Assembly (NCBI GenBank): GCA_963758525.1
Contig: CAVWVQ010000003.1
Coordinates: 2,208,001 to 2,272,000, forward strand
Direction of reading: 5' to 3'
DNA: 64,000 nt
Source of the DNA: an uncultured Phycisphaerales bacterium
Lineage (GTDB): Bacteria > Planctomycetota > Phycisphaerae > Tepidisphaerales > Tepidisphaeraceae
The notes beneath the pieces are model-generated. The model saw nothing but the letters and a program-made list of their open reading frames with translations. It did not search any database and was not told the DNA's origin. The position numbers were made by a program, and so were the translations under genes. Within the stretch, counting starts at the first letter, position 1; each line of letters opens with the position of its first letter. Of this stretch, positions 1,131 to 54,244 are shown piece by piece.

Positions 1131-1137
1131 CCGAACC

Positions 1138-18498: not shown

Positions 18499-20308
18499 AA
18501 AATTGACGGATTCCTCCAGATGAACCGTGCTGCATGGCGGCAGTTGCCATTGGTGAGCCGCCGCCTGCAAGTCGCATTTCCGCTTCCATGGGGTTAGTTA
18601 TCGGGTAGGTCGTGTTCGCATCGTGAGCAGGAGTGTCCAAGTCCCTGCGGACAAACAAGATCGCGTCCCCCGAATGGCAACTTTCCCGCCAGTCCTTCGA
18701 CATCTTCACGCGCGGCAGCAGAGCGGAGTGGTAGGTCATGTCCAGGAGAAGGTAATGAACGTTATAGCGATCCAGCACCTGCCGCCATCGGGGATCTCCC
18801 GATGTTATCTCGCAGTAGTCGCGCCACGCCTGTTCGGAAGCGAGTTCGATATGGCCGTCGATGAAAAGACGCCGCCGAGGTCCGATGCGCCAGTCGAGAT
18901 ACTGGCACCACTCCATTCGAGAAAAGATGACGCCGCTGCTGTTCGGCCTCGAAGCAAGCCCGGCGCGCGCTATCGTCTCTAAATCAGTTTCCGTACGATG
19001 CGGTGAGCGAACCGTCATAAACAGGGGATTGATCCGCTCGAAGCACGGAAGACTCCAGACGCAGAGGATCAGCAGCACCGCGCAAGTCGAGCTGCTCATC
19101 CAACCGCCCACAGCTGATAGTCCTTGCTCAAAGTCGGGTTCAACTGAATCGATCAGCGATGCGACGATCGGGGCGGCGATGATCCCCCACCAGATCACCA
19201 TGCGGGCAGAATGAAAGGCCAGCGGGAGAAAGACGAGGATCAGCAGCGCGTCGCGGGTTGTCGGTCGGCGACGCTTGGAACAATAGAGCCCGCCGACGAG
19301 CAATGCCGACAGTGCGAGCGCTTGCCCGATCCACTGATCCATGCGCGGCGGCATCCATTCCTCAACGTGACGCGGCATCACAATCGCGGTCAGCGAAAAC
19401 GCATATTGATAGACTCGCCAGCCGTAGGGATTGATGAGCGTTGCGAGAGTGCTGAGCACGAGACTGACAACGAGCAATTGCGCAGCGTTCGCGACGGCAC
19501 GACCTCTGAAGACGTCAACCAACGCGGCAACCGCGAACACGCCAATCAGCGCCAGCCCGATGACGAATCCGCCGTGGAGATTCGCCCAGAGCAGTAGAAT
19601 GAGAGGTGGGTAGATCAGCAGCGGTGTGTGGATCGCGTTGATGATCGCTTGGCGAGACGGGTTGAGGACGCCGGGTGACTTACCCCCTCTCCCGGTACTC
19701 CGGGAGAGGGCGGGGGTGAGGGTGATTTGGATCGTCGTGCGCACTTGGTGCTCGAAATCACCCTCACCCCGGCCCTCTCCCGGTGTACGGGGTGAGGGGG
19801 TAAGAGAGTGGTGCTTCAAATCAGTCGTGCGTTCGTTTCTGAGAATGCCGTAGAGAAGCACAAAGAGAAGCATGGAAAACGTCTGCGGGCGAATCAGGAA
19901 CGTTTGCCAGGCGACGAGAAACGTAAAGACTCCGCCAGCAGCGGCGCTGCGCCATGACGTTCCGCCGCGATAACAAAGCCTGACCAGCAGCCACAACGCG
20001 GCTGCCAGCGCCAGAGCGTTTAATGTCTGCACAAGCGATAGGCCGCCCCAGGCGAAGAGGCGAGAATAAACGACTTGGCTGATCCAATTCGCGTCGAGGA
20101 CGTTTGCGCCGGCGATGGTGAAATGGTCGGCGGTGATGATGCGGCCGGTGCGAATGATCTCTTCGCCGCGGGCGAGATGCATCCAGAAGTCGGTTTGGAA
20201 CTGCCGGTCCAGGCAGGCAACGATGAACACCAGCGCCGGCGCGAGGAGTTGCCGGACGGTCTGCTGCGTGGGGAGCCAGCACCGAAGTTGATCGTGAGGC
20301 TGATTCAT
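18488..20308 (-). CDS. Polytopic membrane protein, probable GT-C-type glycosyltransferase, with in-frame palindrome insert
   Basis: TDFWMHLARGEEI, RPQTFS, LWANLHGGF, LINPYG, EEWMPP, FIDG; ATGA overlap with upstream gene at 20305-20308. Confidence 0.7.
   Translation of the reverse strand: MNQPHDQLRCWLPTQQTVRQLLAPALVFIVACLDRQFQTDFWMHLARGEEIIRTGRIITADHFTIAGANVLDANWISQVVYSRLFAWGGLSLVQTLNALALAAALWLLVRLCYRGGTSWRSAAAGGVFTFLVAWQTFLIRPQTFSMLLFVLLYGILRNERTTDLKHHSLTPSPRTPGEGRGEGDFEHQVRTTIQITLTPALSRSTGRGGKSPGVLNPSRQAIINAIHTPLLIYPPLILLLWANLHGGFVIGLALIGVFAVAALVDVFRGRAVANAAQLLVVSLVLSTLATLINPYGWRVYQYAFSLTAIVMPRHVEEWMPPRMDQWIGQALALSALLVGGLYCSKRRRPTTRDALLILVFLPLAFHSARMVIWWGIIAAPIVASLIDSVEPDFEQGLSAVGGWMSSSTCAVLLILCVWSLPCFERINPLFMTVRSPHRTETDLETIARAGLASRPNSSGVIFSRMEWCQYLDWRIGPRRRLFIDGHIELASEQAWRDYCEITSGDPRWRQVLDRYNVHYLLLDMTYHSALLPRVKMSKDWRESCHSGDAILFVRRDLDTPAHDANTTYPITNPMEAEMRLAGGGSPMATAAMQHGSSGGIRQFYGR
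19679..19804. repeat. CCCTCACCCCGGCCCTCTCCC-type palindromic element inside a CDS
   Basis: About 50-nt arms 19679-19728 and 19756-19804; 126 nt = 42 codons; reads LTPSPRTPGEGRGEG...ITLTPALSRSTGRGGK. Confidence 0.9.
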
Positions 20309-21655
20309 GCGGCCAGTGCCGACGATGGCAGTACTGTATTGCCGCAGCGTTGCGCCGGCGTCTCGTCCGCTTTCCAACAACGGGTGATACTGATGATCGA
20401 CAGCGCGGCAAGGATTGGAACGCCGAGATTGAATCGCGTCTGACCGGCGAGCCCCGGATTGAGCTGGGTTTCAAAGAACAGCGCGATCCAGATGGCGAGC
20501 TGCCAGCGATCGAGGGGCGTTGCCCGTGGTGTTTGACGCTCGAGCCAGTCGCGGGCGAAGAAAACCGCTGGCACCGAAAGCAGCAGCAGGTCGTAATCCA
20601 TGTAATAAGGCATCAGCAGCGGCATCGAGACGATAGCCGCCCCCATAAGATTCCGCAGGCGCGGGATGGTCGAGTAAGCCGCGAACGCGCATCACGTTGA
20701 GTGCGGTTGCACCAAACGACACTGCAATGCCCGCAGCGCTGACCCCGATCAGTATTGCCGGCAATAGCGGCAGAGGCCCATTTGAATGTCCCTCGCACAA
20801 GAGCCGCCAGAAACTTTGCAATGTCACCTGTCTGCCCCAGTTGTAACTGGGGGCGTATTGGAGGGCATGCAGAATTGGCGGAAGCTTGACCAGGTAATCG
20901 CCCAACGTCCCGGGAAGCGCTAAGAGCGTCACAGCGACCAGAGCTGAGTTTGTCAGCAGAATTCCCGCGACCGCTCGCCGGCCGCCCGTGATAACCAGAA
21001 CGACCGCCAACGCCAGGGCCAACTGTGGCTTGAAGAATAGAAGGCCCGAGACGGCTCCGGTGATAAACATCGCGTTCCTCGACCAGAATGTGATCGCCAG
21101 CGACAGCAAAAAAAGGGATATGAACGTGTTTTGCTGATGCGTCATCGCCTGCCAAAAGGGCATTGACGTGCACATGAGCAGCGGCAGCAATACCGTGCGC
21201 CAGCCGAGCACCGGCAGTTGCTTGCGGAGAAGCCAAATCGATCCGGACAGCAGCGTCAGGTTGATGGCGAGAAACACTGCCGCCGCCTGGCGGTATGGGA
21301 GGGCCGAGAGTGGCGCAAAGAAAAGCGCAAAAAATGGCGGATTCAGCCAGGGGCCTCCCTGTTTCACGAGCAGCAGATCGGCGGACTTTACAATGCGCGC
21401 CTCCTCACGGTGGACCGCGTCGATGTCATACATGTCCCGCGGTCGACCCTCGTGGACAAAGGTTCCAGCAACGTAGGACGGCAGCAGGTCGTGCCCCAAC
21501 GCCAGCTTATGATCGGTTTGGTGAACCGCGACTCGTTCGATGCAGACGACGCCGATAATCATGCTTGCCATGCAAATGCCGCCGACCAGCAGCCGCTTGG
21601 CAAGACGGCCGGGCGGCGGGGCGAGTCCGAGAGCCTTTGGCTGCTGTGAGGTCAT
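20305..21655 (-). CDS. Glycosyltransferase family 87 (DUF2029-like) membrane protein, apparent frameshift near 20650
   Basis: GHDLLPSYVAG, WLNPPFFA, HQQNT, FKPQLA; C-terminus PLLMPYYMDYDLLLL in ORF 20305..20646. Confidence 0.85.
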
Positions 21656-21664
21656 GAAGATGAC

Positions 21665-23060
21665 TCAGGCGGCTATCCTGCGGCCTGGCGGCTCCCGCAC
21701 TTTGTCGACGTCCAGCAGCAATGCGGTGGTCGCCTGCATCGCCCGCCCGATGAGCATCAGGGACACGGCGCTCAGCAGCACCACGGTTCCGTTGAAACGC
21801 GTCAGCGAGGCGACGTCGGGGTTGATCATGAGCCAGCCATACCAGATCGACCAGATTCCGATCACCATGGAACGGCGCAGTTGGAGCGGCAGGACTTGCC
21901 CGCGCGGCTCATGCTGCTCGAGAACTTCGATCGCGAAGAGAACCGCGGGAATCGCCAGGAGAAGCTGGTCGTAGTCGAAATAGAAAGGCATCAGCAGCGG
22001 CGTGCTGACGATCGTTGCAGCGATCAGCCGGTCGAACCGCCTGCCGTTGCGAATCAAATGGGCTGGCGCCGCGCGCGTCCGCAATGCCGCCGAGAAGAGA
22101 AATGCCCCCAACCCGATGCTGCAGACAGATGCGGCGATCCACGTCACAAGTGAGGATTCTCCCGTCGCGTATCCTTGAAAGAGCAGGCGCCAGAACGCGC
22201 GGAACGTAACATGCCGATCCCATAGATACGGAGTTTCCAGCAGGACGAAATGAAGATTGATCGGCAGACGGTGCTGGTAGTCGCCAATGGTTCCCGGCAG
22301 CGTCCATACGTTGACCGCCAGGAGCGAAGCCCCGGTGATCGCCAGTCCCGCAAGAACACGCCAGCCCAGGCAGATCGTCATCACGACTGCCACCAGCGCC
22401 ACGAGCTGCGGTTTGTATGCCAGCGCTCCGAGCAACAGCCCCGCCAGCAATGGACGTTCATTTCGCCAGGCGGCGACGACCAGAGTCAGCAGAAGAAGAG
22501 ATGTACACGTGTTTTGGGCGTGGGTCAGCGACTGGATGAACGGCGTCGATATTGCGATCAGCACGGGCACCAGCGCCCACGTCGCGGGGCCGCTGCGCGA
22601 CGCCCGCCTGACCCAGCTCACGAGGATGGTCACGGCAATCGCAGCACAAACCAGATCGAAGCCGAGCCAGAGCTTTAGCGCGGCCAGATAGGAAAACTTC
22701 GCCAGCGGGACAAACAGCCATGCATAGTAAGGCGGGTTCCACCACGGGCCGATTGCCTGCCCGAGGTCATCGCCGTTCTGCTGAGCCAGCGCGTGCTGGT
22801 ATTGTGCGATGGCGTGCAGATCGTAGAGGCTGCGCGCGCGGCCCTCGCTGACGAACACGCCGGCCGTGTAGAAGGCGATAAAGTCCGTGCCGACGCTTCC
22901 TTCACGGTGATGCGGTCCGGCCGGCATGAAGGCATAGATGCCCGCCAGGGAGACAATGAAGAGCGTGACGCAGGCGGCGCCGACCCAGAGCCGGCGCTGC
23001 AGGGAGCCGCGGGCGATGACGGAGAATGGGCGTGGGATTCGAATAGTGAAGAGAATATCG
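21665..23060 (-). CDS. Glycosyltransferase family 87 (DUF2029-like) membrane protein; start uncertain
   Basis: GTDFIAFYTAG, WWNPPYYA, HAQNT, YKPQL, PLLMPFYFDYDQLLL; frame stays open upstream of ATG 22927 through a TM helix (RRLWVGAACVTLFIVSLAGIYAF) but has no canonical start there. Confidence 0.85.
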
Positions 23061-23146
23061 ACTGCGGCCCGGCATCAGGTTGCGTGGAAGTATCTGGCTC
23101 GTAGAAAGACCGATCCCGTTGCGAGGCAGTCGCGCCAGCGTATCGA

Positions 23147-23662
23147 TTATTGGCCGCGGGCGGGTAATTGCTCCAGCAAACGGTCGATAACTGCAACGGC
23201 GCTCAGGTCGTTGCGGACAGCCGAGTCTCGGTTCCATTGCACGTTCTCGTTGGGAACGTTGCGCGGAAAGGAAAAATTCGTCGCGATATGGTCCAGCCGG
23301 GACTGACGTTCAGACAGCAGCGCAGACCGCACGGCGCTGACGGCGGCGGGATCCAACGCCGAATCGGCCTGGTGCTCGAGCGCCTTGAGCGTATCGGGAA
23401 CGCCGTCGGCGCCCGCATCGGACGGACCGGCCAGCAGATCGAGGAGATAGCCCGCCCTCCGCACCGGGTCCGCCAGTCGCTCGCGCACCGCTTGCAGACG
23501 CTGGCGCAGCTCCGCGGCGTGATCGCCGCCGCTTGCGGAAATCTCGTTCGACACGCGCGCTACGGCCGTGTCAAGCCGGACCGCATCCAACTGAAACTCG
23601 CGGTTCAAACCGAGCAGTGCAAAATCGTCAGGGGCGTTTTGAAGATCTTCTGCTGCGCTCAT
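23147..23662 (-). CDS. HscB-like co-chaperone homolog lacking the HPD motif
   Basis: DDFALLGLNREFQLDAVRL and RLADPVRRAGYLLDL resemble the HscB J-domain ends. Confidence 0.55.
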   Translation of the reverse strand: MSAAEDLQNAPDDFALLGLNREFQLDAVRLDTAVARVSNEISASGGDHAAELRQRLQAVRERLADPVRRAGYLLDLLAGPSDAGADGVPDTLKALEHQADSALDPAAVSAVRSALLSERQSRLDHIATNFSFPRNVPNENVQWNRDSAVRNDLSAVAVIDRLLEQLPARGQ

Positions 23663-23903
23663 GATGCGGCCCTTGCGGCTCATGCCGGAAAGTGTTGGCG
23701 CTTCGTGGTCGCGTACATGATATCGCTTGACGCGCATCGCGGGAAGCCTAACGATGGCCGCGTAAATGCAGAAGAAATCACGAGCCGTGAGTCATAGAGA
23801 CGCGCAGCGCTGCGAGCCGCAGAGCTGAAAAGCTAAGAAGGCGCAAGACGGTCGCCATGGCGACTAAACTGCGACAGACGCGAACGAAGAGGGAGCGCCG
23901 AGA

Positions 23904-25448
23904 ATGCGTGGAGCACAGAATCTTGCTGCAAAAATAAGGGACGGCGCCACATCACCGATGGAGCAGGCAAACACATTTTCCCCGTGGCATGGGCGTCCCG
24001 CCCATGTGGGCGGCGTGGAACTCAAGAAACATCTCGATATCAAAGGTTCTGCTGCTGCTGCGCCGCCAGCATGGGCGGGACGCTCATGCCACGGGGAAGC
24101 TCTTCGCGTTTTCCTTCGCGCCTTTGCGCCTTCGCGGCTCTTTTTTTTGTTCGTATTATGCACGCTGGCATGTGGCGCGGTCTCCGCAGCCGCACCCATG
24201 GACGACAACTCGCCGATCCGCATCTCCATCATCACGATGGGCCCCGGCGATGCATCGTGGGAGAAGTTCGGGCATATTGCACTGCGCATCCAGGACGTGC
24301 GAGCGCGTTATCCGGACGTGCTCTTCAACTGGGGAATCTTTGATTTCGATCAGAAGAACTTTTATCTGAATTTCCTGCAGGGCCGGATGATCTACACGAC
24401 GGCGGCCGAGGACGGCCCGCCAACGATTGAAGAATACCGCAACAGCGGGCGTACGGTGTGGGAGCAGGTGCTTGGCCTGTCCGAAAACCAGAAAATCGAT
24501 ATCGAGGATCGCTGCATCGCGGCGATCGATCCGCAAAATCGGGATTACCGGTACGATTATTATCGTGATAACTGCTCGACGCGGGTGCGCGATCTCATCG
24601 ATGCCGCGCTGGGCCACCAGATCAGGCAGCAGATTGAGTCGAAGCCGAGCGGCGTGACGGATCGCTGGCACACACGCCGGCTGCTGCGGGACGACATCCC
24701 GCTGTATGTCGCGCTGCAGGCCGTCCTCGGACACCCGGTGGACGAGCCGATTTCACAATGGCAGGAGACGTTTTTGCCGGAGAAGCTGCGCGAACGGCTG
24801 CGCGAGATCAGAATTGTCGGCGCCGACGGCCGGAGCGCGCCGCTGCTGGAAAGTGAAAGCGTTCTCAGCCCGGGCAATAAGCCCCCGGAAGCGTCCGCCC
24901 CACCGAACTCGCTTCCGCCGATGCTGATCGCCGGCGTCCTGATCGCCGGCGGGTTCGTCGGCCTCACGACCCTGATCGTACGCGGTCAGCGCGGTGCGCG
25001 GATCGCCTTGATCGTGTTTGCAATGGCATGGCTGCTGCTGATCGGCGTGGGCGGTGCAATCGCGACGTGGGGCTGGTTCGCGACGGATCACGTCGTCTGC
25101 AGGTACAACGAGAATCTCCTGCAGGTCAGCCCGCTGGCGCTGTTCCTTCTAGTATTGCTGCCCAAAGCCTCGGGCGGCGGGAGGCGGCTCGCGTTTGTCG
25201 TATCGGCAATTATTGCCGGTCTTTCAATCCTCGGGTTGGCGCTGAAAGCTTCACCATTTTTCTTCCAGGTGAATGGCGATATGATCTCACTTTGTCTACC
25301 GATTCATCTCGCGCTCTGCTGGTCGATGTGGCGGCTGTGGAAAATGCCGCCAAAGCCCAGGACGGAATCGCTCGACCGGAAGCGCGGGCCGGCAGACAGT
25401 GCCGATTTCCGCAGCTCGCGCCGGCGGACGCGAGCGGCAACGCAATGA
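23904..25448 (+). CDS. DUF4105 / Lnb-like protein with C-terminal TM helices; start uncertain
   Basis: ITMGPG, KFGHIALRI, FNWGIFDF, YRYDYYRDNCSTRVRD, FLPE, NENLL. Confidence 0.85.
   Translation: MRGAQNLAAKIRDGATSPMEQANTFSPWHGRPAHVGGVELKKHLDIKGSAAAAPPAWAGRSCHGEALRVFLRAFAPSRLFFLFVLCTLACGAVSAAAPMDDNSPIRISIITMGPGDASWEKFGHIALRIQDVRARYPDVLFNWGIFDFDQKNFYLNFLQGRMIYTTAAEDGPPTIEEYRNSGRTVWEQVLGLSENQKIDIEDRCIAAIDPQNRDYRYDYYRDNCSTRVRDLIDAALGHQIRQQIESKPSGVTDRWHTRRLLRDDIPLYVALQAVLGHPVDEPISQWQETFLPEKLRERLREIRIVGADGRSAPLLESESVLSPGNKPPEASAPPNSLPPMLIAGVLIAGGFVGLTTLIVRGQRGARIALIVFAMAWLLLIGVGGAIATWGWFATDHVVCRYNENLLQVSPLALFLLVLLPKASGGGRRLAFVVSAIIAGLSILGLALKASPFFFQVNGDMISLCLPIHLALCWSMWRLWKMPPKPRTESLDRKRGPADSADFRSSRRRTRAATQ
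23980..24137. repeat. REP-like doublet followed by CTTCGCG-type oligomer repeats, inside the open 5' frame of the DUF4105 gene
   Basis: CCCCGTGGCATGGGCGTCCCGCCCATG (23980-24006) pairs with CATGGGCGGGACGCTCATGCCACGGGG (24070-24096); then CTTCGCGTTTTCCTTCGCGCCTTTGCGCCTTCGCGG. Confidence 0.85.
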
Positions 25449-26488
25449 ACCCGCAGCCCTCTCAGTCAAAATCAACCATGCGCTACTTCCATGCATCAAT
25501 CGTATTGAGCCTCTGCGGTTATCTCGTCGCCGGATGCGGCGGAAAAACGCAAGATCCCAACGCCAAGGTCCTGCCCGCCCCGCCGCGCATCACCGCGGCG
25601 CCGCCGGTGAAAAATGTACCGCTCGACCCTGCGCTCGCGGAGGCCGCGCACGAGCAGATCACCCGCTCGCTGAACTCCAACAGCTCTTCTCCCACGCCGC
25701 GGGTGCATGCGCTGGAAGCGGTGAAGGATTTGGGAGAGGTTGAGCATGCGCCGGAGGTCATTGCAGCCTTGTCCGCCCCTGAGCCGATCGTCCGCTTTGC
25801 CGCGGCGATGACCGCCGGCGGATTGAAGCTTGAAGCCGCGCACCAGCCGCTGCTGGCAATCGCCAGCGATCCGGATGCAAACGTGCGTGTGGCGGTGCGT
25901 TACGCACTGCACCGCCTCGGCGATGCCCGCCTGAGTCATGATCTGGAAAAGTACGCCCGCGATCCCCGCAAGGAAGTGCGCGGCAATACCGCGATGGTTC
26001 TCGGCATGCTCAGCGAGCCCAGCGCGCTGAAAGTGCTGAGCGTTCTTCGCAAGGATCCCGAGCCGTCCGTCCGCCAGCAGGCGGCCGAAGCGATGTGGCG
26101 GCTGGGTGACGAGTCGGGAATGGAGGCGCTGGTTGGCATGACCGTCAGCCGCTACCCCGACGACCAGATGCTGGCGTTGCTCGCGCTGGCCGAGCCGCGC
26201 GATCAACGGGTGGGGCGGACGGTGGAGGCGGGCCTCAGCGTCGACTACATCGAAGTCAATCTGGTCGCAGCCCGGGCTTTGGGAATGCTGGGAACCGATG
26301 AGGGATACACCGTCGCGCTCCGCGGCGCCGCCAGCTCCGACCCCCGACAGCGTTTCATGGCCGCCCTCGCCCTGGGCGCCATCGGGCGGGCTGATGCGCA
26401 GGACACGCTGCGAAAGCTGCTTGCCGACGACTATGAAAGTGTGCGGATCGCGGCGGCGGAGGCGATTCTGCAGCTTCACGGAACGTGA
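25445..26488 (+). CDS. HEAT/PBS-lyase repeat lipoprotein
   Basis: Lipobox LVAG|C; repeats VRFAAA, DPDANVRVAVRYAL, DPEPSVRQQAAEAMWRLG, VRIAAAEAIL; ATGA overlap with upstream gene. Confidence 0.85.
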   Translation: MNPQPSQSKSTMRYFHASIVLSLCGYLVAGCGGKTQDPNAKVLPAPPRITAAPPVKNVPLDPALAEAAHEQITRSLNSNSSSPTPRVHALEAVKDLGEVEHAPEVIAALSAPEPIVRFAAAMTAGGLKLEAAHQPLLAIASDPDANVRVAVRYALHRLGDARLSHDLEKYARDPRKEVRGNTAMVLGMLSEPSALKVLSVLRKDPEPSVRQQAAEAMWRLGDESGMEALVGMTVSRYPDDQMLALLALAEPRDQRVGRTVEAGLSVDYIEVNLVAARALGMLGTDEGYTVALRGAASSDPRQRFMAALALGAIGRADAQDTLRKLLADDYESVRIAAAEAILQLHGT

Positions 26489-26490
26489 TT

Positions 26491-26764
26491 AGGATTCAGG
26501 GTTCAGGGCTCAGGACAAATTCGAATAACGAAGCTCGAATCCTCGAATGAAGCTCGATTGTCGAATGACCGAATGTCGAAACCGCGAGTAGTGCGTCCTT
26601 TTCGCGGATGTCTGCCTGCGCGGCCTTCGTAGTCCCACGATGAAGCAGGCGGAATCAGGTTCACCCGCGCGTTTAATTCGAGTTTCGACATTCGGGCTTC
26701 GGATTTGATTCTGGTTTCGAGCTTCGTCATTCGGATTTCCGCGACGGCTCACGCCCTGAACCCT
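26491..26764. repeat. Large imperfect hairpin of the GAATGACGAA family with outer TCAGGG heptamer arms
   Basis: TTCAGGGTTCAGGGCTCAGG ... CGAATGACCGAATGTCGAAAC ... GTTTCGACATTCGG ... CTTCGTCATTCGGATTTC ... CCCTGAACCCT. Confidence 0.8.
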
Positions 26765-26825
26765 CCCCAGTCCCATAACGTATGTAATAGTCGGCGGCTG
26801 CGCCTGTCTGGAACCCGGAAATTCC

Positions 26826-26853
26826 TTGACACTCCACCGTGCGAGATTAGGAT
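26826..26853 (+). promoter_or_regulatory. Sigma70-like promoter
   Basis: TTGACA-N16-TAGGAT about 85 nt upstream of TTG 26938. Confidence 0.4.
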
Positions 26854-26937
26854 ATTGATTGGCGGTTTCAGACTTGCCGATGCCGGATTGTCCTTGCCGA
26901 CCACCACTGCCAGCTAACTTCGTCTGAGGAGCACACC

Positions 26938-27801
26938 TTGAGCGCACTCACCAAGACTTTCGTCGTTCTGCACGTGATTCTGTCCATGGTTCTGGTCTCG
27001 GCCCTGGTTGTCTTCGTCAATCGAACCGAAGATTTCCGCGCCTTGAACAAGGCCGCCACGGACAAATACAACGCGGCGAAGAACGACGCGACCCAGGCAG
27101 CAATTGAAACCGCCAGCGTGAAGGCCGCGCTGCAGCAACAGCTCAATTCCAAGGATGCGTCGCTGACGGCCCAGCGCAAAGCGCTCGCCGCCGACCAAAC
27201 CACGATCGGCGGCCTTAATACGCAGGTCGCCGACCTGACCAGCAAGGTCGCGATGGCGCTGAGCGCGCAGACCGCCACGACCGCCGCCCTCCAGGTCGCC
27301 CAACAGCAGAACGCGACCATTGAGACCAACTTTGCGAATCTGCGCAAGCAGCAGGACGCCCTGCAACAGCAGTACACCGAAGCGAGCCTGCATATCACCG
27401 ATCTGCAGAACAAGCTGGATGTGACGGAGAAGCAGCGGCGGTATCTGGCTGAGCAGGTCACGCAGCTCACCGCCCAGAACGCGCAGCAGGCAGACCTCAT
27501 TCATAAAAACATTCCCGCCATCGAAGACCGCCAGGGCGCAATACTGAATCCAAACCCCACGATCGCCCTCGACGGAGTTGTGCGGGACAAGACGGTCATT
27601 GCCGGCGTCCCCTACGCCACCATCTCGATCGGCAGCGCCGATCAGGTCGAGAAGAACATGCAGTTTAAGGTGATCGACCATGACAGGTTTCTCGGCTACC
27701 TGACCGTCGACACGGTGGAGCCGCACGAAGCGACCGGCCGACTTGAAGGGCCGCACGTCGAAGACGTGAAGAGCGGCGTGGAAGTGAAAACCCAACTTTA
27801 A
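26938..27801 (+). CDS. Membrane-anchored coiled-coil protein with C-terminal beta domain
   Basis: AGGAG RBS before TTG; N-terminal TM; long Q/A/L-rich heptads; ISIGSADQVEKNMQFKV. Confidence 0.8.
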   Translation: MSALTKTFVVLHVILSMVLVSALVVFVNRTEDFRALNKAATDKYNAAKNDATQAAIETASVKAALQQQLNSKDASLTAQRKALAADQTTIGGLNTQVADLTSKVAMALSAQTATTAALQVAQQQNATIETNFANLRKQQDALQQQYTEASLHITDLQNKLDVTEKQRRYLAEQVTQLTAQNAQQADLIHKNIPAIEDRQGAILNPNPTIALDGVVRDKTVIAGVPYATISIGSADQVEKNMQFKVIDHDRFLGYLTVDTVEPHEATGRLEGPHVEDVKSGVEVKTQL

Positions 27802-27835
27802 TGAACGGGCGCGGGTTCGCGCACGTGCGAAAGAC

Positions 27836-28714: not shown

Positions 28715-28724
28715 ACGGCGATCC

Positions 28725-38260: not shown

Positions 38261-38323
38261 AGAAGGCACGAAGGGGGCAACGGGAAGAGGCACGAAGGCA
38301 CGCAGGCACGCAGGCACGAAGGG
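38261..38323. repeat. GGCACGAA octamer repeat tract
   Basis: GGCACGAAGGCACGCAGGCACGCAGGCACGAAGGG; same unit at 46881 and 53271. Confidence 0.8.
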
Positions 38324-38381
38324 AAGGAAATGGGACAGATGGAGTGGGCATAGGAGCTCTAATGTCGAAGATCCCGTTCGT

Positions 38382-41515: not shown

Positions 41516-41570
41516 GTAGCACGGCAGTCTCGGCTGTGGCCGCAAATCACAGCCGAGACGGCTGTGCTGC
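41516..41570. repeat. REP-like doublet beginning GTAG
   Basis: GTAGCACGGCAGTCTCGGCTGTG ... CACAGCCGAGACGGCTGTGCTGC. Confidence 0.8.
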
Positions 41571-44849: not shown

Positions 44850-45038
44850 GGGTAGTCACCTGTGAGATTCGGCCGCGCGGGACGACTCCTCGCCGCAGTT
44901 CACGGTCCGCTATCACGTTTCTTCGGAAGTTTGTCCCGGTAAGTTTTGCCGAAAATGCGGATGAGGCGGCCGCGCAGACGCATGCCGCACGCTGCGGGTT
45001 AAACGCGGAACCTGCAGCGGCATGGGACGATCGCGTCG

Positions 45039-45359: not shown

Positions 45360-45375
45360 ATTCCCAGAGCCGACG

Positions 45376-46476: not shown

Positions 46477-46589
46477 TCAGGAACCCGGGATTCCCGGGCT
46501 CTATATTTGAAGCCGGCATCGCTGACGCCGGACCAGGAACCGCGAGTCGTCGGCTCCGCTGCCGTGATCGCAAAAACTCGGGGAAATGG

Positions 46590-48499
46590 ATGTCCACCGA
46601 AACCGCTGATATTGAACTTGCTGAGCGACCGAGGACCGCGAAGCCGCCGCGCTCATTTCTGGGTCACGCCAAGCTGATCGGCGGATTCACGTTTCTCAGC
46701 CGGATCATGGGCCTGGCGCGCGAAGTCGTGGCCGGGCATTACCTGGGCACCGGCCTGGTTGCGTCCGCGTTCACTGTCGCATTCACGATTCCCAATCTGT
46801 TTCGGAAACTCTTCGGCGAAGGAGCGCTATCGGCGGCGTTCATTCCGCTTTACGCGCAGGAGGTGAAGAGGGAAGAAGAAGGCACGAAGGCACCCGCCGC
46901 GGCGGGTAAACTGCGGCACGAAGGCACGAAGGGTGAGGAAGCCAGAAGCAGGAAGCAAGAAGCAAGAAGTCGGGAGGAGGAAGCCGAATCGGATAGCCTG
47001 CCACGTCAATCAGCCTCTTATCACGTTCCAATCACCAATCACCAGCCTCGCCAGTCGGCGAGCGACTTCGCCGCCGCGAGCGTCAACCTTCTCTGCGTGG
47101 TGCTGGTCGTCCTCACGCTTCTTGGCGAGGCGATCCTCTTCTTCTGCATGTGGCGCGACCCGGGGATGCGGCCGGATCGGCTGCTGATGTTCCGGCTCAC
47201 CGCGATCATGCTGCCTTATGTCGTGCTCATCTGCGGAACCGCATTCCTCGGAGCGATCCTGCAGGTGCACCATCGTTTTGCCGCACCGGCGGCAGCGCCG
47301 ATTCTGCTGAATGTCTGCCATATCCTCGTCGTCTTCATCGGTGCGCGGCTGCTGCATCTGCGGCACGGCACCGATCCGGCGCTGGTCGTCGGGCTCCAGA
47401 CAAAACTCGCCTATTGGCTTTCATGTTTCGTGCTGATCGCGGGCCTCCTGCAGTTCAGCATCCTGCTGCCGGGGCTGCGCGCCGTTGGATTCCGCTTCAA
47501 GCCGGTGCTGCATTTTTGGACCCCGGCGATTCGCAAGATGCTGCGGATGAGCGCGCCGGTGGCGATGGGGGCCGGCGTGCTGCAGCTTTCGGTTCTGCTG
47601 GATAAGGGCATTTCCGTCGTCCTCATGCGTGGCGTCGATTCGGCGGGCCATTCGATCGACTCCTTCACGCTGCTCGGCCATGTCGTCCGCTATCCCATGG
47701 AGATGGGCGCGCCGGCGCGGCTCAACCTCGCCCAATTTCTCTACCAGTTTCCGCTCGGCGTCTTCGCGATCGCCCTGGCGACCGCGATTTTTCCGGGGCT
47801 CAGCGCAGATGCACTGGACAAGGACCGCACGCGCTTCAAAGCGGTGATCCGCCAGGGTGTCGAGGCGACGCTTTGGGAGGGAATCCCCGCGAGCGTCGGC
47901 CTGATTCTCGTTCGCGGGCCCGCCGTTCGACTGCTGTTCCAACATGGTCTGGTCAGCGCGCACGATGCGGCGCTGATCGCGCAATCCGTGCTGTATTACT
48001 CGGCGCAATCTGGGCGTTCAGCCTGCTGCAGATTCTCAATCGCGCGTACTACGCAATGCACGACACGCTCACGCCGCTACTGATGTCGGTGTTGAACATC
48101 GTGCTGAACCTGATTGTCGAGCTGCCGATCATCTGGTGGCTCGGAGAAGCCGGGATGGCGGTGGGGACGCTGGTGAGCTTCGCGATTCAAGCCGTGCTCA
48201 CGCTCTATCTGCTGGATCGACGCGTCGGAGGTTTGGGACTCGGGAGGATCGCCAGGCCAGTGGCAAAGATGTGCGCGGCAACCGCGTTGATGTGGCTCGT
48301 CTGCGTCGGGATGCAGCGTCTGCCGATCTATCCGCATGCCAACGGGCGACTCATCTGGCTCACGCAACTCTGTGCCCTGATGATCGTCGGCGGCGGTGTC
48401 TATCTCCTCACCTGCAAATTGCTCGGAGTTGAGACCATGCAGCAACTGTTGCCCCATGGAGCGGACAGAAACCAATCGCGTCCGGCAGAACTCGATTGA
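46590..48499 (+). CDS. murJ: Lipid II flippase MurJ/MviN, apparent frameshift near 48005, with repeat-derived insert
   Basis: SRIMGLARE, AFTIPNLFRKLFGEGALSAAFIP, QFPLGVFAIALAT, RAYYAMHDTLTP. Confidence 0.93.
46881..47047. repeat. Composite repeat inside murJ: 53-bp GGCACGAA element plus heptamer tracts
   Basis: 46881-46933 is the reverse complement of 53271-53323 with one mismatch; followed by AGAAGCA-type and CCAATCA heptamers. Confidence 0.9.
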
Positions 48500-48710
48500 A
48501 AATTTGCAGTCGTCAGATGCACGCCGACAGGATTTTCCACTCAACCAGCCGCGACTGAATTCGGTCCATTGCCGCGGCACATTGCCGCCGGAGCACGACA
48601 TCATCGCAGCGGATGATTCCATTGATGCGTCGGCGCGGCTATGGATGCCCGCGCCTGGAAACTCCGGGATGATCTCGCGCTGGTTTCAGAAGAATGAAGG
48701 GCGAAGCCGT

Positions 48711-48725
48711 TGGCACCAGTTTTGA
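48711..48725 (+). promoter_or_regulatory. Near-consensus sigma54 promoter
   Basis: TGGCAC-N5-TTGA, one mismatch to TGGCAC-N5-TTGC. Confidence 0.35.
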
Positions 48726-48809
48726 ATGCGCTTGCGCCTGCAGCCCGCGTGTTACCGTCGCTTTCGAACGGCGGTTCGTGGGATGCTCCATTTTCTCAAG
48801 GAGATTGCA

Positions 48810-49049
48810 ATGCGAAGCATCATGGATCCAAGCCATAAGGAAGGCCCGGTCGCCCGGACAATCGAGCAGCAGACTGCCAAGCTCCCATCGGATCTTTTCC
48901 TCTGGCTCGCCGGCGCATCGATCGCCGGATCGCTGACTCTCAAGCTTTTTCGCCAGGATCACCACGCGCTTTTCGTCGGCCAATGGGCACCGACGTTCCT
49001 CCTGCTTGGCCTGTACAACAAGCTGGTGAAAATCGCAGGCTCTGACTAA
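48810..49049 (+). CDS. Small hypothetical membrane protein
   Basis: AAGGAG RBS; EGPVARTIEQQTAKLPSDLFLW...FVGQWAPTFLLLGLYNKLVK. Confidence 0.8.
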   Translation: MRSIMDPSHKEGPVARTIEQQTAKLPSDLFLWLAGASIAGSLTLKLFRQDHHALFVGQWAPTFLLLGLYNKLVKIAGSD

Positions 49050-49174
49050 AGGCGGGGCGCGGCTCGTCCACTTTTTCATCGATCAAAAACGAGACGCGAG
49101 GCACACGAGCTCGGCGTTGCTGTATCTTGCTTGACACCGTCGACCGAATCAGGAATTGCCGGCCCCCCGTACCG

Positions 49175-49189
49175 TGGCACCCACGTTGC
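49175..49189 (+). promoter_or_regulatory. Sigma54 (-24/-12) promoter
   Basis: Exact TGGCAC-CCACG-TTGC about 78 nt upstream of ATG 49267. Confidence 0.6.
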
Positions 49190-49266
49190 CTTACGACCGC
49201 TCCAGCCGCTAAGGCGACGAGGTGTCTCGGTGCAAAACGCGGCGAAGCTATTTTTTTGGAGGTGTC

Positions 49267-49851
49267 ATGCGTAAGCATTCTCACAAGATCGGCCGTTCAA
49301 TTGGCGCAGTTGCGCTCGCTGCCGGCAGTCTTATTTTTCTCGACATTCCCATCAGCCGGGGCAACGCTCCACGGGCAGCGGGGACAGGCAGTTCCCATAT
49401 GAGCATCGCTGCTCAGGTGAGCGGGTCAGGAACCGGGGGCGGCAGCAGCGGAAGTTCCGGCGGCGGGACGTCCGGGTCAGGCGCGGCAGGCTCAGGCGGC
49501 TCCGGAACGTCCGGCTCCGGAACGTCCGGGTCGGACAACGGTGCTGGCAGCAGCGGCAGCACGGGCTCCGGCAGCGGCACCGGTAACACCGGTTCAAACT
49601 CGGGCAATGGCGGCTCCGGAAGCGGCGGCGCCTCGAGTGGCAACGGTGGCACTGGCAGCGGGACCGGCGGCGCCGGCGGGAGCAGCTCCGGCAACAGCGG
49701 CACCGGCACTGGAGGATCGAGCGGCGGCGGCAGTGGGAGCGGAGCTACCGGATCAGGCGGAGCCGGAACGGGCGGAAGCGGTTCTGGAACCGGCGGCACC
49801 GGCGGCGCCACTGGTGGCGGCAGCGGAGCGGGAGGTGGAGCCGGCAAGTAA
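49267..49851 (+). CDS. Secreted Gly/Ser/Thr-rich low-complexity protein
   Basis: GGAGGT RBS; basic plus hydrophobic N-terminus, then mostly G/S/T/A/N. Confidence 0.75.
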   Translation: MRKHSHKIGRSIGAVALAAGSLIFLDIPISRGNAPRAAGTGSSHMSIAAQVSGSGTGGGSSGSSGGGTSGSGAAGSGGSGTSGSGTSGSDNGAGSSGSTGSGSGTGNTGSNSGNGGSGSGGASSGNGGTGSGTGGAGGSSSGNSGTGTGGSSGGGSGSGATGSGGAGTGGSGSGTGGTGGATGGGSGAGGGAGK

Positions 49852-49959
49852 TTCTGCCGACGACTCGCGTCAACAACGTCGTGGTGAGCTGCAACAAAAG
49901 GGGGCTCACCACTGCTTCGCCCCCTGCCACCCCTTCCCTTCCCCGGTTACCATCGGCTG

Positions 49960-51729
49960 ATGGTGCGTGCGAGGGTGCGGATGGGCGCGCTGCTGCTGGC
50001 GGCGCTGGGATTGTATCTGGTGGGAAATGCGTCGGTTCCCCTGATGGATCGCGATGAGCCGCGCTATGCGCAATGCTCGAGGCAGATGCTGCAGAGCGGC
50101 GACTGGGTGGTGCCGCGGCTGTTCGACGAAATCCGCGCAAAGAAGCCGCCGTTGATCTACTGGTGCCAGGCGTCCGTGATGTGGGCCATCGGAGACACGG
50201 CCTTTGCAGCGCGGCTGCCGTCGGTTCTCGCGATCTTCGCGTGCGCATGCCTGCTGGCGCACTTTGTGTGGCAACTGCGCGGGCCGGAACATGCGCTGTG
50301 GACAACGCTGATCTTTTGCTCCACTGCGCTGGTGATCGTCGCGGCCAAGTCTTCGATGACGGACGGAGTGCTGCTGCTCTGGACCGTCATCGGCCAGGCG
50401 TGTGTTTATGCCATTTGGCGGGGAAACCGCTCATGGATCGTCGTGCTGATCCTGGCAGTTGCGATCGCGCTCGGGCTGCTGACCAAGGGGCTGATCGTCG
50501 GAGTCTTGCTGACGACGATACTCGTGCTCTATGGCTTCGGAAGCAGCTTCAAAGCTTACGTCTGGCTTCGCCACCTGTTTAGCCGCGACGCGCAGCGGAC
50601 CGCGTCCAGCAGCGTATTTTGCGATTCAGGCGAGGTACGTCAGGAGGCGTCACTGGACGCGCTCCGCTCCGCGTCGCGGCTGAACAGCGACACGGCGCCG
50701 CCCGGCTGGCAGAACCGCCTCACCCCAACACAGATCGCTCAAGTCATCGTCGGTCTCCTAATCGTCATAGGCATCGTCGGCCCGTGGCTCTATATGGTGC
50801 ATCAGCGATCTCCTGAATTCTTAGGAGCAATGGCACATGAAGCCGAAGGGCATGCGTTCAAGGGGATGGAAGGGCACGGGGGGCCGCCGGGGATGCACGC
50901 GCTGTTCATCTGGGCGGACTTCCTGCCGTGGAGCTTGCTGCTGCCCGCGGCGATGGTCGTCGGCTGGCTGCATCGCGAGGAACCAACGACTCGATTCGCG
51001 CTGGCTGCCGTGATCGGACCATGGCTCATGGCGGAATTGACGATCAAAACAAAATTGCCGCAATACATGCTGCCGACAATGCCCGCCCTGGCGTTCCTGA
51101 CCGCTGACGCGATCGTTCGCGGTCTGCGCGAAAGGGCTTCGGCTTTTTCGTCGCCGCAGTTCGTCGGCGCGGCAACCATCTGGGCGGGGATCATGATGGT
51201 GATCGGGTGCCTGCCGTGGCTGGCGGCACTGCGTTTCCGTCCGCTGCCGTGGATGACGATGTCGATCATTTCCGCCGGCGCAGTGGGTTGGGGCGTTTGC
51301 GTGGTCGCGCTGCTGCGGCGCGGGGAGGAAGCCAAAGGTTTAGGCGCCATCGGAGTGGGGATGATCTGCGTGACGGGGCTTCTGTATGGCATCTACCTGC
51401 CGCGAGCGCAGTTCCTGCGGCTGTCGATCCTCGCTGCGGACGTGCTGCGTGCGAACGGCGTCACTCATCCGGGACAATCTCTGATGACCGATTACAAGGA
51501 GCCGAGCCTCGCCTTTTATCAGGGAGGAACGATTCGCGAAGCCCTCAGCCCGGTGATCGTCCGCGGCGAATACGATCGATGGAAGCCGTGGATGGTGATG
51601 ACCCGCGATGTTTGGAATCGCTCGCCGGACGCGGTGCGCGCTCGTTTGGAAGTCGTCGCGCACTTTCACGGGTTGGCGGTTGCGGACGCCATGCGCGACG
51701 TGGATGTCATGGTGGTCCGGACACGATGA
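49960..51729 (+). CDS. ArnT-like glycosyltransferase (GT39/GT83) with in-frame palindrome insert
   Basis: MDRDEPRYAQ...GDWVVP, KPPLIYW, ARLPS, LTKG, TKLPQYMLP. Confidence 0.9.
   Translation: MVRARVRMGALLLAALGLYLVGNASVPLMDRDEPRYAQCSRQMLQSGDWVVPRLFDEIRAKKPPLIYWCQASVMWAIGDTAFAARLPSVLAIFACACLLAHFVWQLRGPEHALWTTLIFCSTALVIVAAKSSMTDGVLLLWTVIGQACVYAIWRGNRSWIVVLILAVAIALGLLTKGLIVGVLLTTILVLYGFGSSFKAYVWLRHLFSRDAQRTASSSVFCDSGEVRQEASLDALRSASRLNSDTAPPGWQNRLTPTQIAQVIVGLLIVIGIVGPWLYMVHQRSPEFLGAMAHEAEGHAFKGMEGHGGPPGMHALFIWADFLPWSLLLPAAMVVGWLHREEPTTRFALAAVIGPWLMAELTIKTKLPQYMLPTMPALAFLTADAIVRGLRERASAFSSPQFVGAATIWAGIMMVIGCLPWLAALRFRPLPWMTMSIISAGAVGWGVCVVALLRRGEEAKGLGAIGVGMICVTGLLYGIYLPRAQFLRLSILAADVLRANGVTHPGQSLMTDYKEPSLAFYQGGTIREALSPVIVRGEYDRWKPWMVMTRDVWNRSPDAVRARLEVVAHFHGLAVADAMRDVDVMVVRTR
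50575..50687. repeat. TAGCCGCGACGCGCAGCGGA palindromic doublet inside the ArnT-like CDS
   Basis: CTGTTTAGCCGCGACGCGCAGCGGACCGCGTCCAG pairs with CTGGACGCGCTCCGCTCCGCGTCGCGGCTGAACAG. Confidence 0.9.
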
Positions 51730-51777
51730 TCTGATTGACAGCGATTGAGATGAGCTGCGGTGAAGACTTGCTCCCGA

Positions 51778-51882
51778 GGTTAGCCGCGACGCGCAGCGGA
51801 GCGCGTATTTTGGGAGTTGCCACTGGGCGACATAGCGTGCTTCTCGCTCGAATACGCGCTCCGCTGCGCGTCGCGGCTAACC
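51778..51882. repeat. Intergenic copy of the same doublet with perfect 32-bp inverted arms
   Basis: 51778-51809 is the exact reverse complement of 51851-51882. Confidence 0.92.
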
Positions 51883-51968
51883 CGGGGGAGGATGGGCGGT
51901 AATCCTTTAATCACAGCTGATCGCGTCTCCCGTCGAATCCCGTTCCGCGAATGCTATACTCGCATCCA

Positions 51969-53062
51969 ATGCAGACGGCTCAGCGTATTCTCGTGGTGCA
52001 GCCGAGCTGGGTCGGGGATGCCGTCATGGCAACCCCGACGTTGCGGGCGTTGCGCGGCGCGTTCCCGTCCGCGCATATCAGCTACCTGCTTCGCCGATAC
52101 GTCAAACCGCTCTATGCGGGAATGCCGTGGGCCGATCAGTTGATTACCTATCGAACGGGAAAGGGGCCGTCGAAAACGGGAAAAGGCCTCTTCGAAATTG
52201 CCGGCCGGCTGCGGGCGGGTAATTTTGATCTGGCGGTGCTCCTGCCCAATTCCTTCAAGACGGCGCTGCTCTGCAAGATGGCGATGATCCCGCGCGTGGT
52301 CGGCTACGACCGCGATGGACGGGGATTTTTGCTGACGGACAAGTTGCTGGCCGTCAAGGAAAAGGGGAGGTTCGTCCCGATGCCGCTGGTGAAGACGTAT
52401 CTTGGACTCGCCCACTACGTGGCGCAGCCGATCGCGATTTGCGCATGGAGTTGTTTGTCACAGAGAGTGAAGCGCGCAACGCGCGCGAAGTGCTGACGCG
52501 TTGCGGATTGCCCCCGGATCTGGAGCGGCCGGCGGCCGCGGGCGCGCCGCCGCTGGTTCTGCTGAACCCCGGCGCCCACTACGGCGCGGCCAAGTGCTGG
52601 CGGCCGGAATATTTCGCCGAGCTGGCAGATCGTCTGATCGATGAGATGCGGGCCACGGTGTTGATCAGCGCCGCGCCCAAAGAGCGACCCATCGTGGATG
52701 CGATCAAGCAGTACATGCGGCGCACTCCAATCGACCTGTCGCAACATGGCATGACGCTTGGGAGCCTCAAGGAGATCGTCCGACGGTGCGATTTGATGAT
52801 CACCAATGACACCGGCCCCAGGCACATTGCCGCGGCGCTGAATGTACCGGTCATCACGCTCTTTGGGCCGACGCATCCGGAGTGGACGGAGATTTATTAC
52901 GCACGGGAACGGCAATTGGCCGTCAAGGTATTCTGCGGCCCGTGCCAGAAAAAAGTCTGTCCGCTCGATCACCGATGCATGAAGCTGCTGACCCCGGCCA
53001 TGGTTTTCGACGCCGCCGGCCCGCTGCTAAACACCATACGTTCTTTGCCGATCATTACTTAG
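51969..53062 (+). CDS. waaF: LPS heptosyltransferase II (GT9), apparent frameshift near 52425
   Basis: PSWVGDAVMATP, LPNSFKTA, NPGAHYGAAKCW, TNDTGPRHIAAA, LFGPT. Confidence 0.88.
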
Positions 53063-53230
53063 CTCGCGCCTCAACCTCGTCTCGATCGTCGCTTCTATCC
53101 AAATCCTCGCACAACCTTCATCGGTTCTAAATGTTACGCCCGATGATTCCCCCGGATGCGAATTCGCTCGACGGCTGCGCGTCTCGAATCTTCTTCCCTC
53201 CATGTCCCAGAAAGGTCCCGGCGCGTCGGG

Positions 53231-54244
53231 ATGCCTTCGGGCGGTGGCGCCTTGGCTCCGGACTCTCCTTCCCTTCGTGCCTCCGTGCCGCAGTTTACCC
53301 GCCGCGGCGGGTGCCTTCGTGCCTCTCCCCACAACGCTTTCACCCTTGTCGAGCTTTTGGTTGTCATTGGTATTATCGCCCTGCTCATTGCAATTTTGTT
53401 GCCAGTGCTTGCCAAGGCGCGCGAAGCGGCCCGCGAGACCAGGTGTCAAAGCAATCTTCGGCAGCTTGGGATAGGTTTGCAGATGTACTGCGATGCGAAC
53501 AAAGGACTCATTCCGGCTGACAGCAACAGCGGCAGCAAGTCGAACCCCGTGGACGCCATCAACGGCCTTTATCTCAGTTGGAGCGGCCCAGAGATGTGGT
53601 TCAACGCGATTCCGCCGATGATCAACCTTCCCGCCTATTACGACTTGATCAGCGCTGCGCCACCCACAGGAGGAGCTCCGGTCCCGACGATTTCTGACAA
53701 TTCGGTCTTTATCTGCCCATCCTGCAATACACTGGCGATCGCCACCGGAGAGACAGCCAATGTCACCGTGAACAATAACAGCTATTTCCTGATTTTTGGC
53801 GATCCGCCCGCCAATCGCGGCAACTATGTGAAGGCGTCGACCGTGCAGCTTCCCACTTGCATGTGTTACGTCCCCAATTCCAAGATCCTGAGCGGCAAGA
53901 ATCCTCGGCCGAAGCTGAGCCAGATGATTCCGTCATCCAACGTGGCAGTGTTTGTTGAGAAGAGAATGTCGCCCGGCGAAATCAACCAGACGGATCTGCA
54001 GTATACGGCTCTCACCACCCCCGCCGCGACGTCGGTGCAGAGCACGGCATTGGGTCAGCTTTCCGCATCATGGACGCGATTCACCAGCCGCCACCGCAAC
54101 GGCGGATACATCTGCTTCGCGGACGGTCACGTCGGCTGGTATACGCTGGACCAGGTGAATTTCCCGCCCAACATCGTCGCCGGCATTGACGACTACAACG
54201 ATCCGGCGAATGTGATCTGGAATCCGTTCGGAACAGCGCCGTAG
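53231..54244 (+). CDS. DUF1559-type prepilin N-terminal cleavage/methylation protein with H-X9-DG motif; start 53156 or 53231
   Basis: [52 protein letters not shown]. Confidence 0.9.
53271..53323. repeat. 53-bp GGCACGAA element in the prepilin leader region
   Basis: Reverse complement of 46881-46933 with one mismatch; central CCCGCCGCGGCGGG palindrome. Confidence 0.9.

What the first reader, a model, noticed from the sequence alone, without database searches (positions are those of the whole stretch)
19679..53323. Several unrelated palindromic repeat families are inserted in frame into protein-coding genes
Seen: repeat elements lie within open frames of the GT-C protein (19679-19804), DUF4105 5' end (23980-24137), murJ (46881-47047), ArnT (50575-50687) and a prepilin leader (53271-53323). 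The ArnT and murJ/prepilin families have siblings elsewhere in the window (51778-51882; 38261-38323). Established: Rickettsia palindromic elements are a precedent for repeats adding peptide segments to proteins. Inference: here several different families do this in one 64-kb window, mostly in loops or leaders of envelope proteins, suggesting an active repeat-driven route to protein diversification.
Basis: partly seen in the sequence, partly recalled or inferred. Interest (0 to 1): 0.8.

Follow-up and report, generated by a model that had tools for sequence, protein, structure and literature searches.

The report
Repeat debris translated in protein loops
In a repeat-rich planctomycete, about 3 in 100 copies of many small DNA repeat families sit in frame inside genes, including single-copy housekeeping genes, where they likely survive as tolerated extra loops; several of these families match the arms of tiny gene cassettes that may be what spreads them.

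Summary
The repeats are real. Three of the five sites (the GT-C-like gene, murJ, the ArnT-like gene) are internal, in-frame segments that most orthologs lack. The other two (Lnb/DUF4105, prepilin) lie in leaders that are likely cleaved or not translated. Not all are palindromes: the murJ and prepilin copies are 7–8-nt tandem arrays.

Genome-wide, 50 of 1,459 repeat loci lie in frame inside genes, against 645 of 1,500 random positions. Hosts are not envelope-enriched (9 of 50 with ≥3 hydrophobic helices; baseline 13.5%) and include single-copy PheS, ValS, IleS, TsaD, CarB, PurL and UvrA. Families with stop-free frames dominate (38/489 against 8/686). Relatives carry different repeat families in the same MurJ, ArnT and PheS loops. 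This fits passive tolerance in permissive loops, not envelope-directed diversification.

The GT-C repeat is a BoxC/triplex-type motif whose arms flank DUF559 nuclease genes (26 of 28 loci). Other families flank four-helix-bundle or GxxExxY genes. In-frame repeats are known from Rickettsia and Opitutus; I found no paper on the cassette link. Translation and mobility are inferred, not shown.

The parts
19679..19804 (.). Family A head-to-head dimer (BoxC/triplex-motif-type arms, 38-nt spacer by the core-motif count), in frame in the minus-strand GT-C-like gene; 42 aa of a net 65-66 aa extra segment
   Evidence: 138 loci genome-wide
18488..20380 (-). Host: polytopic membrane protein next to two GT87 genes (likely start ATG 20305); no Pfam hit
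23978..24098 (.). Family B REP-like hairpin dimer in the 5' region of the lnb/DUF4105 gene; likely in the leader or untranslated
24099..24140 (.). Tandem-type repeat (family that flanks a GxxExxY gene elsewhere), overlapping the start of the predicted signal peptide
23904..25448 (+). Host: Lnb (PF13387, ex-DUF4105); true start uncertain
46880..46933 (+). Octamer-array family copy with a nested 25-nt hairpin core; first part of the MurJ loop insert
46934..46975 (+). Degenerate heptamer array; second part of the MurJ loop insert (only 5 loci by blastn; resembles by eye the family flanking a four-helix-bundle gene)
47020..47047 (+). Third repeat family in the MurJ loop (approximate start); the same family flanks a four-helix-bundle gene at C3:86416
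46590..48083 (+). Host: murJ, only copy found; frameshift near 48000 that looks like a homopolymer assembly error, and the gene continues in another frame
50575..50687 (.). Family D hairpin dimer in frame in a variable loop of the ArnT-like protein
   Evidence: right junction bridged by a contig of run X1
49960..51729 (+). Host: ArnT/PMT-family glycosyltransferase
51773..51887 (.). Intergenic sibling of family D between the ArnT-like stop and a GT9 gene
53271..53324 (-). Near-identical inverted copy (98%) of the murJ octamer element, in the prepilin leader upstream of the N-methylation motif
53156..54244 (+). Host: DUF1559 prepilin-type protein
38261..38329 (.). Sibling of the octamer family between the 2-oxoacid oxidoreductase alpha and beta genes; likely intergenic

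Best explanation
Copies of many unrelated small repeat families lie in frame inside about 50 genes of this genome, where they are likely translated as extra surface loops and likely persist because they are tolerated rather than selected. The families are of two builds, hairpin dimers and 7-9-nt tandem arrays. Several match the inverted arms that bracket small DUF559, four-helix-bundle or GxxExxY genes in the same genome, so the dispersed copies are likely 'empty' non-autonomous forms of those cassettes (inferred; mobility not shown). Copies that land in genes are mostly purged. Those that keep the frame, lack stop codons and fall in an already variable loop or a disposable leader survive, attract further repeats (three families are stacked in the MurJ loop) and then decay into ordinary-looking loop sequence.
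For: Shown. (a) More than 50 repeat families, 1,459 merged loci. (b) In frame and internal: 30 of 1,459 against 566 of 1,500 random (strict); 50 of 1,459 against 645 of 1,500 (relaxed). (c) Families with >=50% stop-free frames give 38 of 489 in-frame copies, the others 8 of 686 (20 families, three doubtful loci dropped; Fisher p=1e-8; Spearman 0.47, p=0.036). (d) Hosts include PheS, ValS, IleS, Mfd (Pfam domains of typed stretches; exact names partly from recalled motifs) and TsaD, CarB, PurL, UvrA, NadA, RadA, RarA (NCBIfam on G034 orthologs). 13 of 15 tested host sequences have no second locus at E<1e-20, so the insert-bearing copy is the only one found. (e) Same loop, other families in relatives: MurJ 2 of 26 loops (G001 heptamer dimer, G008 octamer arrays) plus a GTAG-type hairpin seen by eye in G002; ArnT 2 of 22 (G021 family B, G033 family A). 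The PheS loop is 12-13 aa in the Clostridia and gammaproteobacterial records shown, 13-45 aa in the 22 closest relatives, one of which (L242) holds its own heptamer dimer. (f) G034 has a decayed copy of the same family at the same CarB site. (g) MurJ fold intact around a low-confidence insert; the insert maps just after the first stretch aligned to solved MurJ. (h) Family A arms bracket DUF559: 26 of 28 loci with an inverted score >=16 (50 control pairs, maximum 11), and the hairpin on both sides in 24 of 28. Of 49 family A dimers in G000 most have 36-40-nt spacers and one has a 397-nt spacer that is a DUF559 gene. 5 of 7 four-helix-bundle and 3 of 4 GxxExxY genes examined in G000 have family repeats beside them.
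Against: No RNA or protein data. No cognate gene was found for families B and D or for the murJ octamer family itself (a related octamer family has one). 10 of 32 genomes with >=5 family A copies have no DUF559 match at E<=1e-15, and 7 of 29 with fewer copies have one (my tally; 22 of 32 against 7 of 29; kin not independent). In 4 of 12 pairwise alignments with G034 (RarA, RadA, PurL C-part, DinG) the ortholog has an equally long or longer unrelated loop, so these are replacements rather than clean insertions. 9 of 27 loci with both flanks on one G034 frame are frameshifted or stopped (not curated for shadow frames). About 20% of sampled genes (31 of 152) look frameshifted, so single frame calls are fallible. 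No target-site duplication was detected, and no empty/filled pair from close strains was available.
Confidence: 0.75

Rival explanations
1. Adaptive, envelope-directed protein diversification: repeats are selected for adding new surface peptides to envelope proteins.
For: Three in-frame inserts in membrane proteins in this window; a second ArnT-like gene elsewhere also has an insert; repeated use of the same loops.
Against: No membrane enrichment (9/50 against 13.5%, p=0.40); about 13-fold depletion in genes; unrelated peptides occupy the same loop in different species; two window cases are in leaders.
Confidence: 0.07
2. The hairpins are removed or skipped at the RNA level (like rRNA intervening sequences or ribosome bypass), so the proteins are made without the extra peptide.
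For: Very stable hairpin dimers; four-helix-bundle genes belong to the 23S rRNA intervening-sequence family (PF05635).
Against: Frame and stop-free reading are kept, and family success follows stop-free frames, which skipping would not require; the tandem-array inserts form no hairpin.
Confidence: 0.05
3. The repeats spread by host processes (slippage, gene conversion, repair at structured DNA) or by RAYT/Y1 transposases, and the DUF559, four-helix-bundle and GxxExxY genes are passengers between repeat pairs, not mobilisers.
For: 23 Y1_Tnp matches in G000; repeat-rich genomes without a DUF559 hit; Holder et al. found no mobile element beside the E. coli motif (PMC4666352, passages); four-helix-bundle proteins have no known catalytic activity (recalled).
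Against: Gene family and arm family are paired specifically; the ten window repeat queries hit near only 2 of the 23 Y1 matches, one at about 850 nt.
Confidence: 0.3
4. Assembly artefact or decayed genes: the inserts are long-read errors or sit in pseudogenes.
For: Indel-prone assembly (31 of 152 sampled genes in more than one frame); murJ, valS and purL hosts are split or shifted.
Against: A contig of run X1 (184 letters, 5 differences, depth 3) spans the right arm of the ArnT insert and 125 nt of gene (may be the source sample). Relatives from other assemblies have repeats in the same loops. Hosts are single-copy and conserved on both sides, including beyond the murJ shift.
Confidence: 0.04

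Closest known systems
Rickettsia palindromic elements (RPE; Ogata et al. 2000/2002, as summarised in PMC10969869 and PMC3184786, passages read; originals not read)
   Same: Dispersed repeats in frame in unrelated genes; more than one family does so in one genome (three of ten RPE families).
   Different: Nearly half of the RPEs of those families are in ORFs; here about 3%. Here half of the contributing families are tandem arrays, peptides are not conserved between families, and the host is a 6.5-Mb planctomycete. Sequence homology to RPEs was not tested.
Intragenic GTAG/CGTC REPs (Di Nocera et al. 2013, PMC3733652, passages read)
   Same: A minority of copies inside genes, often dimers, uvrA among hosts, highest GTAG count in the PVC member Opitutus terrae; the authors argue for neutrality in loops and warn that N-terminal cases may be extragenic.
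   Different: Here the GTAG-type family is rarely in frame (2 of 162); most in-frame copies come from non-REP families tied to DUF559 and four-helix-bundle genes, not to RAYTs.
BoxC / PIT / TM-ECO intrastrand triplex motif (Holder et al. 2015, PMC4666352, passages and Table 1 read)
   Same: Family A has the same hairpin plus third G-rich tract and the same head-to-head dimers.
   Different: Loop of 8 nt (0 strict matches with a 3-6-nt loop, 77 with 3-10). Always intergenic and not linked to a mobile gene in E. coli K-12; here in frame in genes and flanking DUF559.
REPIN/RAYT (REPtron) and MITE systems (PMC3733652, PMC10969869, passages)
   Same: A gene bracketed by inverted repeats, plus many gene-less dimers of fixed spacing.
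   Different: The bracketed genes are a Vsr-like nuclease fold, a four-helix bundle or a PD-(D/E)XK protein, not a Y1 or DDE transposase; no target duplication seen.

Membership tests
RPE-like intragenic repeats | Multi-copy dispersed repeat | tested here: met
RPE-like intragenic repeats | In frame inside unrelated genes and absent from most orthologs | tested here: met
   3 of 5 window sites; 8 of 12 genome-wide pairs show extra sequence in G000
RPE-like intragenic repeats | Palindromic, hairpin-forming | tested here: inconclusive
   met for families A, B, D; not met for the murJ/prepilin arrays
RPE-like intragenic repeats | Peptide present in the expressed protein | not testable with these tools
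   no RNA run listed; no proteomics
Rickettsia RPE families proper | Sequence homology to RPE-1..10; high coding fraction | tested here: not met
   coding fraction about 3% against nearly half; homology itself not tested
BoxC/TM-ECO | CCCTC-N-CCC hairpin followed by a third GGG-N-GAGGG tract | tested here: met
   both arms at 19679-19804 match with an 8-nt loop
BoxC/TM-ECO | Intrastrand triplex formation | not testable with these tools
   needs CD/NMR or footprinting
BoxC/TM-ECO | Intergenic location (as in E. coli K-12) | tested here: inconclusive
   mostly intergenic; 7 of 102 and 10 of 87 loci of the two variants are in frame
REP/RAYT (REPtron) | Repeat family flanks a Y1/RAYT transposase gene | tested here: not met
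   window families do not bracket any of 23 Y1 matches
MITE | Terminal inverted repeats | tested here: met
   families A, B, D dimers
MITE | Target-site duplication | tested here: not met
   49 family A dimers, flank matches no longer than in shuffled pairs; other families not tested
MITE | Cognate transposase shown to mobilise it | not testable with these tools
   only an association with DUF559

The most novel reading that the evidence does not exclude
DUF559, four-helix-bundle and GxxExxY genes head three undescribed classes of tiny selfish cassettes. Their empty arms seed BoxC-type hairpins and heptamer/octamer arrays across genomes and, by landing again and again in the same permissive loops, have built the long variable loops of Tepidisphaerales proteins (PheS 12 to 13-45 aa, MurJ about 14 to 71 aa). 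Such loops would be fossils of successive insertions.
Probability: 0.35. Interest if true: 0.75.

Novelty: new member of a known kind. Interest (0 to 1): 0.42.

Why it matters
In-frame repeat insertion is known, but this genome allows it to be counted. It shows strong depletion in genes, a stop-codon filter, repeated use of the same loops by different families in related species, and a decayed copy kept across genera: a neutral route by which non-coding DNA becomes lasting protein loop. It also names candidate partner proteins for two long-unexplained repeat classes (BoxC/triplex motifs, heptamer arrays), which can be tested by simple binding and cleavage assays. In practice these repeats inflate predicted N-termini and create spurious shared peptides in planctomycete annotations.

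Tried and rejected
No RNA holder listed for the murJ region; this is no evidence either way. Run X1 laid on 17000-27000 listed no piece bridging the GT-C or Lnb repeats. Rfam: 0 matches in the window at gathering thresholds. RAYT/Y1 as the partner of the window families: not supported. Target-site duplication for family A: none (my first pattern was faulty and was redone). Prepilin ortholog comparison was uninformative: one G002 hit aligns from residue 56, and its leader was not seen; 30% of 23 G000 prepilin paralogs also have 30 or more codons to the nearest ATG, so leader length alone proves nothing. A weak alignment suggesting that G001 has the family B repeat upstream of lnb was checked and rejected. 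Three of the 50 in-frame calls (a DUF559-prepilin junction and two ~19-nt chance matches) were dropped for the family test; others may also be false, and random controls show the classifier misses about half of true internal sites. Only the first 2.4 Mb of G034 (49%) was available for ortholog tests. Literature: nine searches showed no paper linking DUF559, four-helix-bundle or GxxExxY genes to these repeats, or describing this in Tepidisphaerales; most subscription journals are not covered. PMC4679880 (passages) was not relevant; Ogata 2002 was not held. The supplementary list of intragenic REPs in PMC3733652 was not opened and may contain planctomycete cases.
Full report
Setting. The window is G000:C3:2208001-2272000 of a 6.47-Mb, 61% GC assembly. 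The closest named pheS relatives are Tepidisphaerales/Phycisphaerae, phylum Planctomycetota, so I place it there by inference. The assembly is indel-prone: 31 of 152 sampled orthologous frames are split across reading frames, and murJ shifts frame at a G-run while staying close to the G001 ortholog beyond it.

The observation. All named stretches exist and belong to families with 45-138 loci, except one sub-part of the murJ insert with 5. The GT-C, Lnb and ArnT elements are strong hairpin dimers (z -15.5, -11.7, -7.7). The murJ and prepilin elements and the 38261 sibling are tandem arrays with no folding signal. Against orthologs, the GT-C-like protein has 109 aa where 3 of 3 relatives have 43-44; MurJ has 91 where most have 33-47; ArnT has 109 where most have 61-75, in a loop that is long in several other relatives too. 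The MurJ insert stacks three families, and AlphaFold models it as a low-confidence stretch on an intact fold. The Lnb and prepilin cases are N-terminal. Lnb orthologs start about 40 aa before the domain, and a run of 8 T leaves the upstream frame uncertain. The prepilin repeat precedes the N-methylation motif and would be cut off (established knowledge). Di Nocera et al. give the same caution for N-terminal REPs (PMC3733652, passages).

Genome-wide test. De novo k-mer clustering gave more than 50 families, merged to 1,459 loci. A dicodon model called 30 (strict) or 50 (relaxed) as internal and in frame, against 566 and 645 of 1,500 random placements: about 3%, a 13-fold depletion. The true number may be nearer double, as the classifier misses about half of random internal sites. 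The window is one of 3 of 78 bins with three such inserts. Hosts are not envelope-biased: 9 of 50 against 13.5%. Of the 50 hosts, 19 were scanned through G034 orthologs (15 named) and 20 as typed stretches (19 with a Pfam hit). They include RarA, PurL, UvrA, DinG, CarB, RadA, NadA, TsaD, two class I tRNA synthetases (ValS and IleS by recalled motifs), PheS, Mfd, HypF and a PHP-domain polymerase. 13 of 15 tested sequences have no second locus, which is indirect evidence that the insert-bearing copy is the working one. Families whose frames are mostly stop-free give 38 of 489 in-frame copies, the rest 8 of 686, as expected from a passive filter.

Recurrence and decay. Other repeat families occupy the same MurJ loop in 2 of 26 relatives (plus a small GTAG hairpin seen by eye in G002, so three species of one genus carry three different repeats) and the same ArnT loop in 2 of 22. 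The PheS loop is 12-13 aa in the Clostridia and gammaproteobacterial records, 13-45 aa in the 22 closest relatives and 41 aa in G000; one relative has its own heptamer dimer there, but the others show no recognisable G000 repeat. In CarB, G034 has a decayed copy of the same family at the same site as G000: either one old insertion or two. Of 12 pairwise alignments, 8 show extra sequence in G000 and 4 show an unrelated loop of equal or greater length. No tree was built, so independence is argued only from family identity.

Where the repeats come from. G000 has DUF559, four-helix-bundle and GxxExxY genes. Family A and its variant bracket two DUF559 genes as inverted arms; 5 of 7 four-helix-bundle genes and 3 of 4 GxxExxY genes examined have their own array family beside them, including the third family of the MurJ insert and the tandem repeat at the Lnb leader. 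Among 49 family A dimers, most have 36-40-nt spacers and one has the DUF559 gene as spacer. In relatives, 26 of 28 usable DUF559 loci (30 fetched, 2 at contig ends; includes one G000 locus) have inverted arms, against none of 50 control pairs. The family A pattern occurs in 37 of 61 family genomes at 1-279 copies (36 of 60 without unpublished G004, on which no claim rests). Against a strict dependence, 10 repeat-rich genomes lack a DUF559 hit, and families B and D have no partner gene found. Four-helix-bundle genes occur in 26 of 31 genomes, but their flanks in relatives were not seen. Earlier scan notes pointed me to BoxC/TM-ECO. Table 1 of PMC4666352 and a motif test confirm the match, with a longer loop; in E. 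coli K-12 the motif is always intergenic and was not linked to a mobile element.

Mechanism. Shown: location, frame, depletion, family bias, recurrence, and pairing of arms with genes. Inferred: translation; mobility; that dispersed copies are empty cassette forms; that the bracketed proteins act on their arms; neutrality.

Comparison and novelty. In-frame repeats, several families per genome and the neutral-loop argument are in print for Rickettsia and Opitutus (PMC10969869, PMC3733652, PMC3184786; passages only). Earlier scan notes report the same behaviour in many other genomes (unchecked AI notes, not support). The finding as given is therefore a new member of a known kind. The part I could not find in print, in nine searches, is the link to DUF559, four-helix-bundle and GxxExxY cassettes; I saw it before reading similar notes. 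Interest 0.42.

Noticed in passing
window 46891-46915 and 26 other loci of G000: A 25-nt hairpin-bearing core is nested inside the octamer arrays at 27 loci: a repeat within a repeat.
   Followed up: partly
G000:C3:1210797-1211269: Frameshifted DUF559 cassette with family A arms; its right arm reads in frame into a downstream prepilin-like gene.
   Followed up: partly
window 1060-1131, 3800-4010, 6816-6993, 10264-10372, 26531-26739, 41527-41568: Further intergenic repeat dimers of other families, one of which flanks a four-helix-bundle gene at C3:3373190.
   Followed up: partly
   Followed up: no
window ~48000, 51951-53062, 54323-56022: Apparent frameshifts in murJ, the GT9 gene and probably the GT41/TPR gene; consistent with a background of about 20% split genes.
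   Followed up: partly
G000, 23 Y1_Tnp matches (L031-L053): Mostly near-identical ~230-aa Y1 proteins in two or three groups, some in tandem; the one at C3:4371390 has GTAG-type REP-like repeats on both sides.
   Followed up: partly
G000:C2:365055-368392: The valS-like gene carries two separate inserts of different families, one about 100 aa with internal tandem expansion.
   Followed up: no
window 19679 region and L062 (G033 ArnT): Both family A inserts are followed by a similar short peptide (RQAIIN) in unrelated proteins; chance or a longer element end, not resolved.
   Followed up: no
G000:C3:960184-962106: A second ArnT-like gene has a repeat of yet another family in frame.
   Followed up: no
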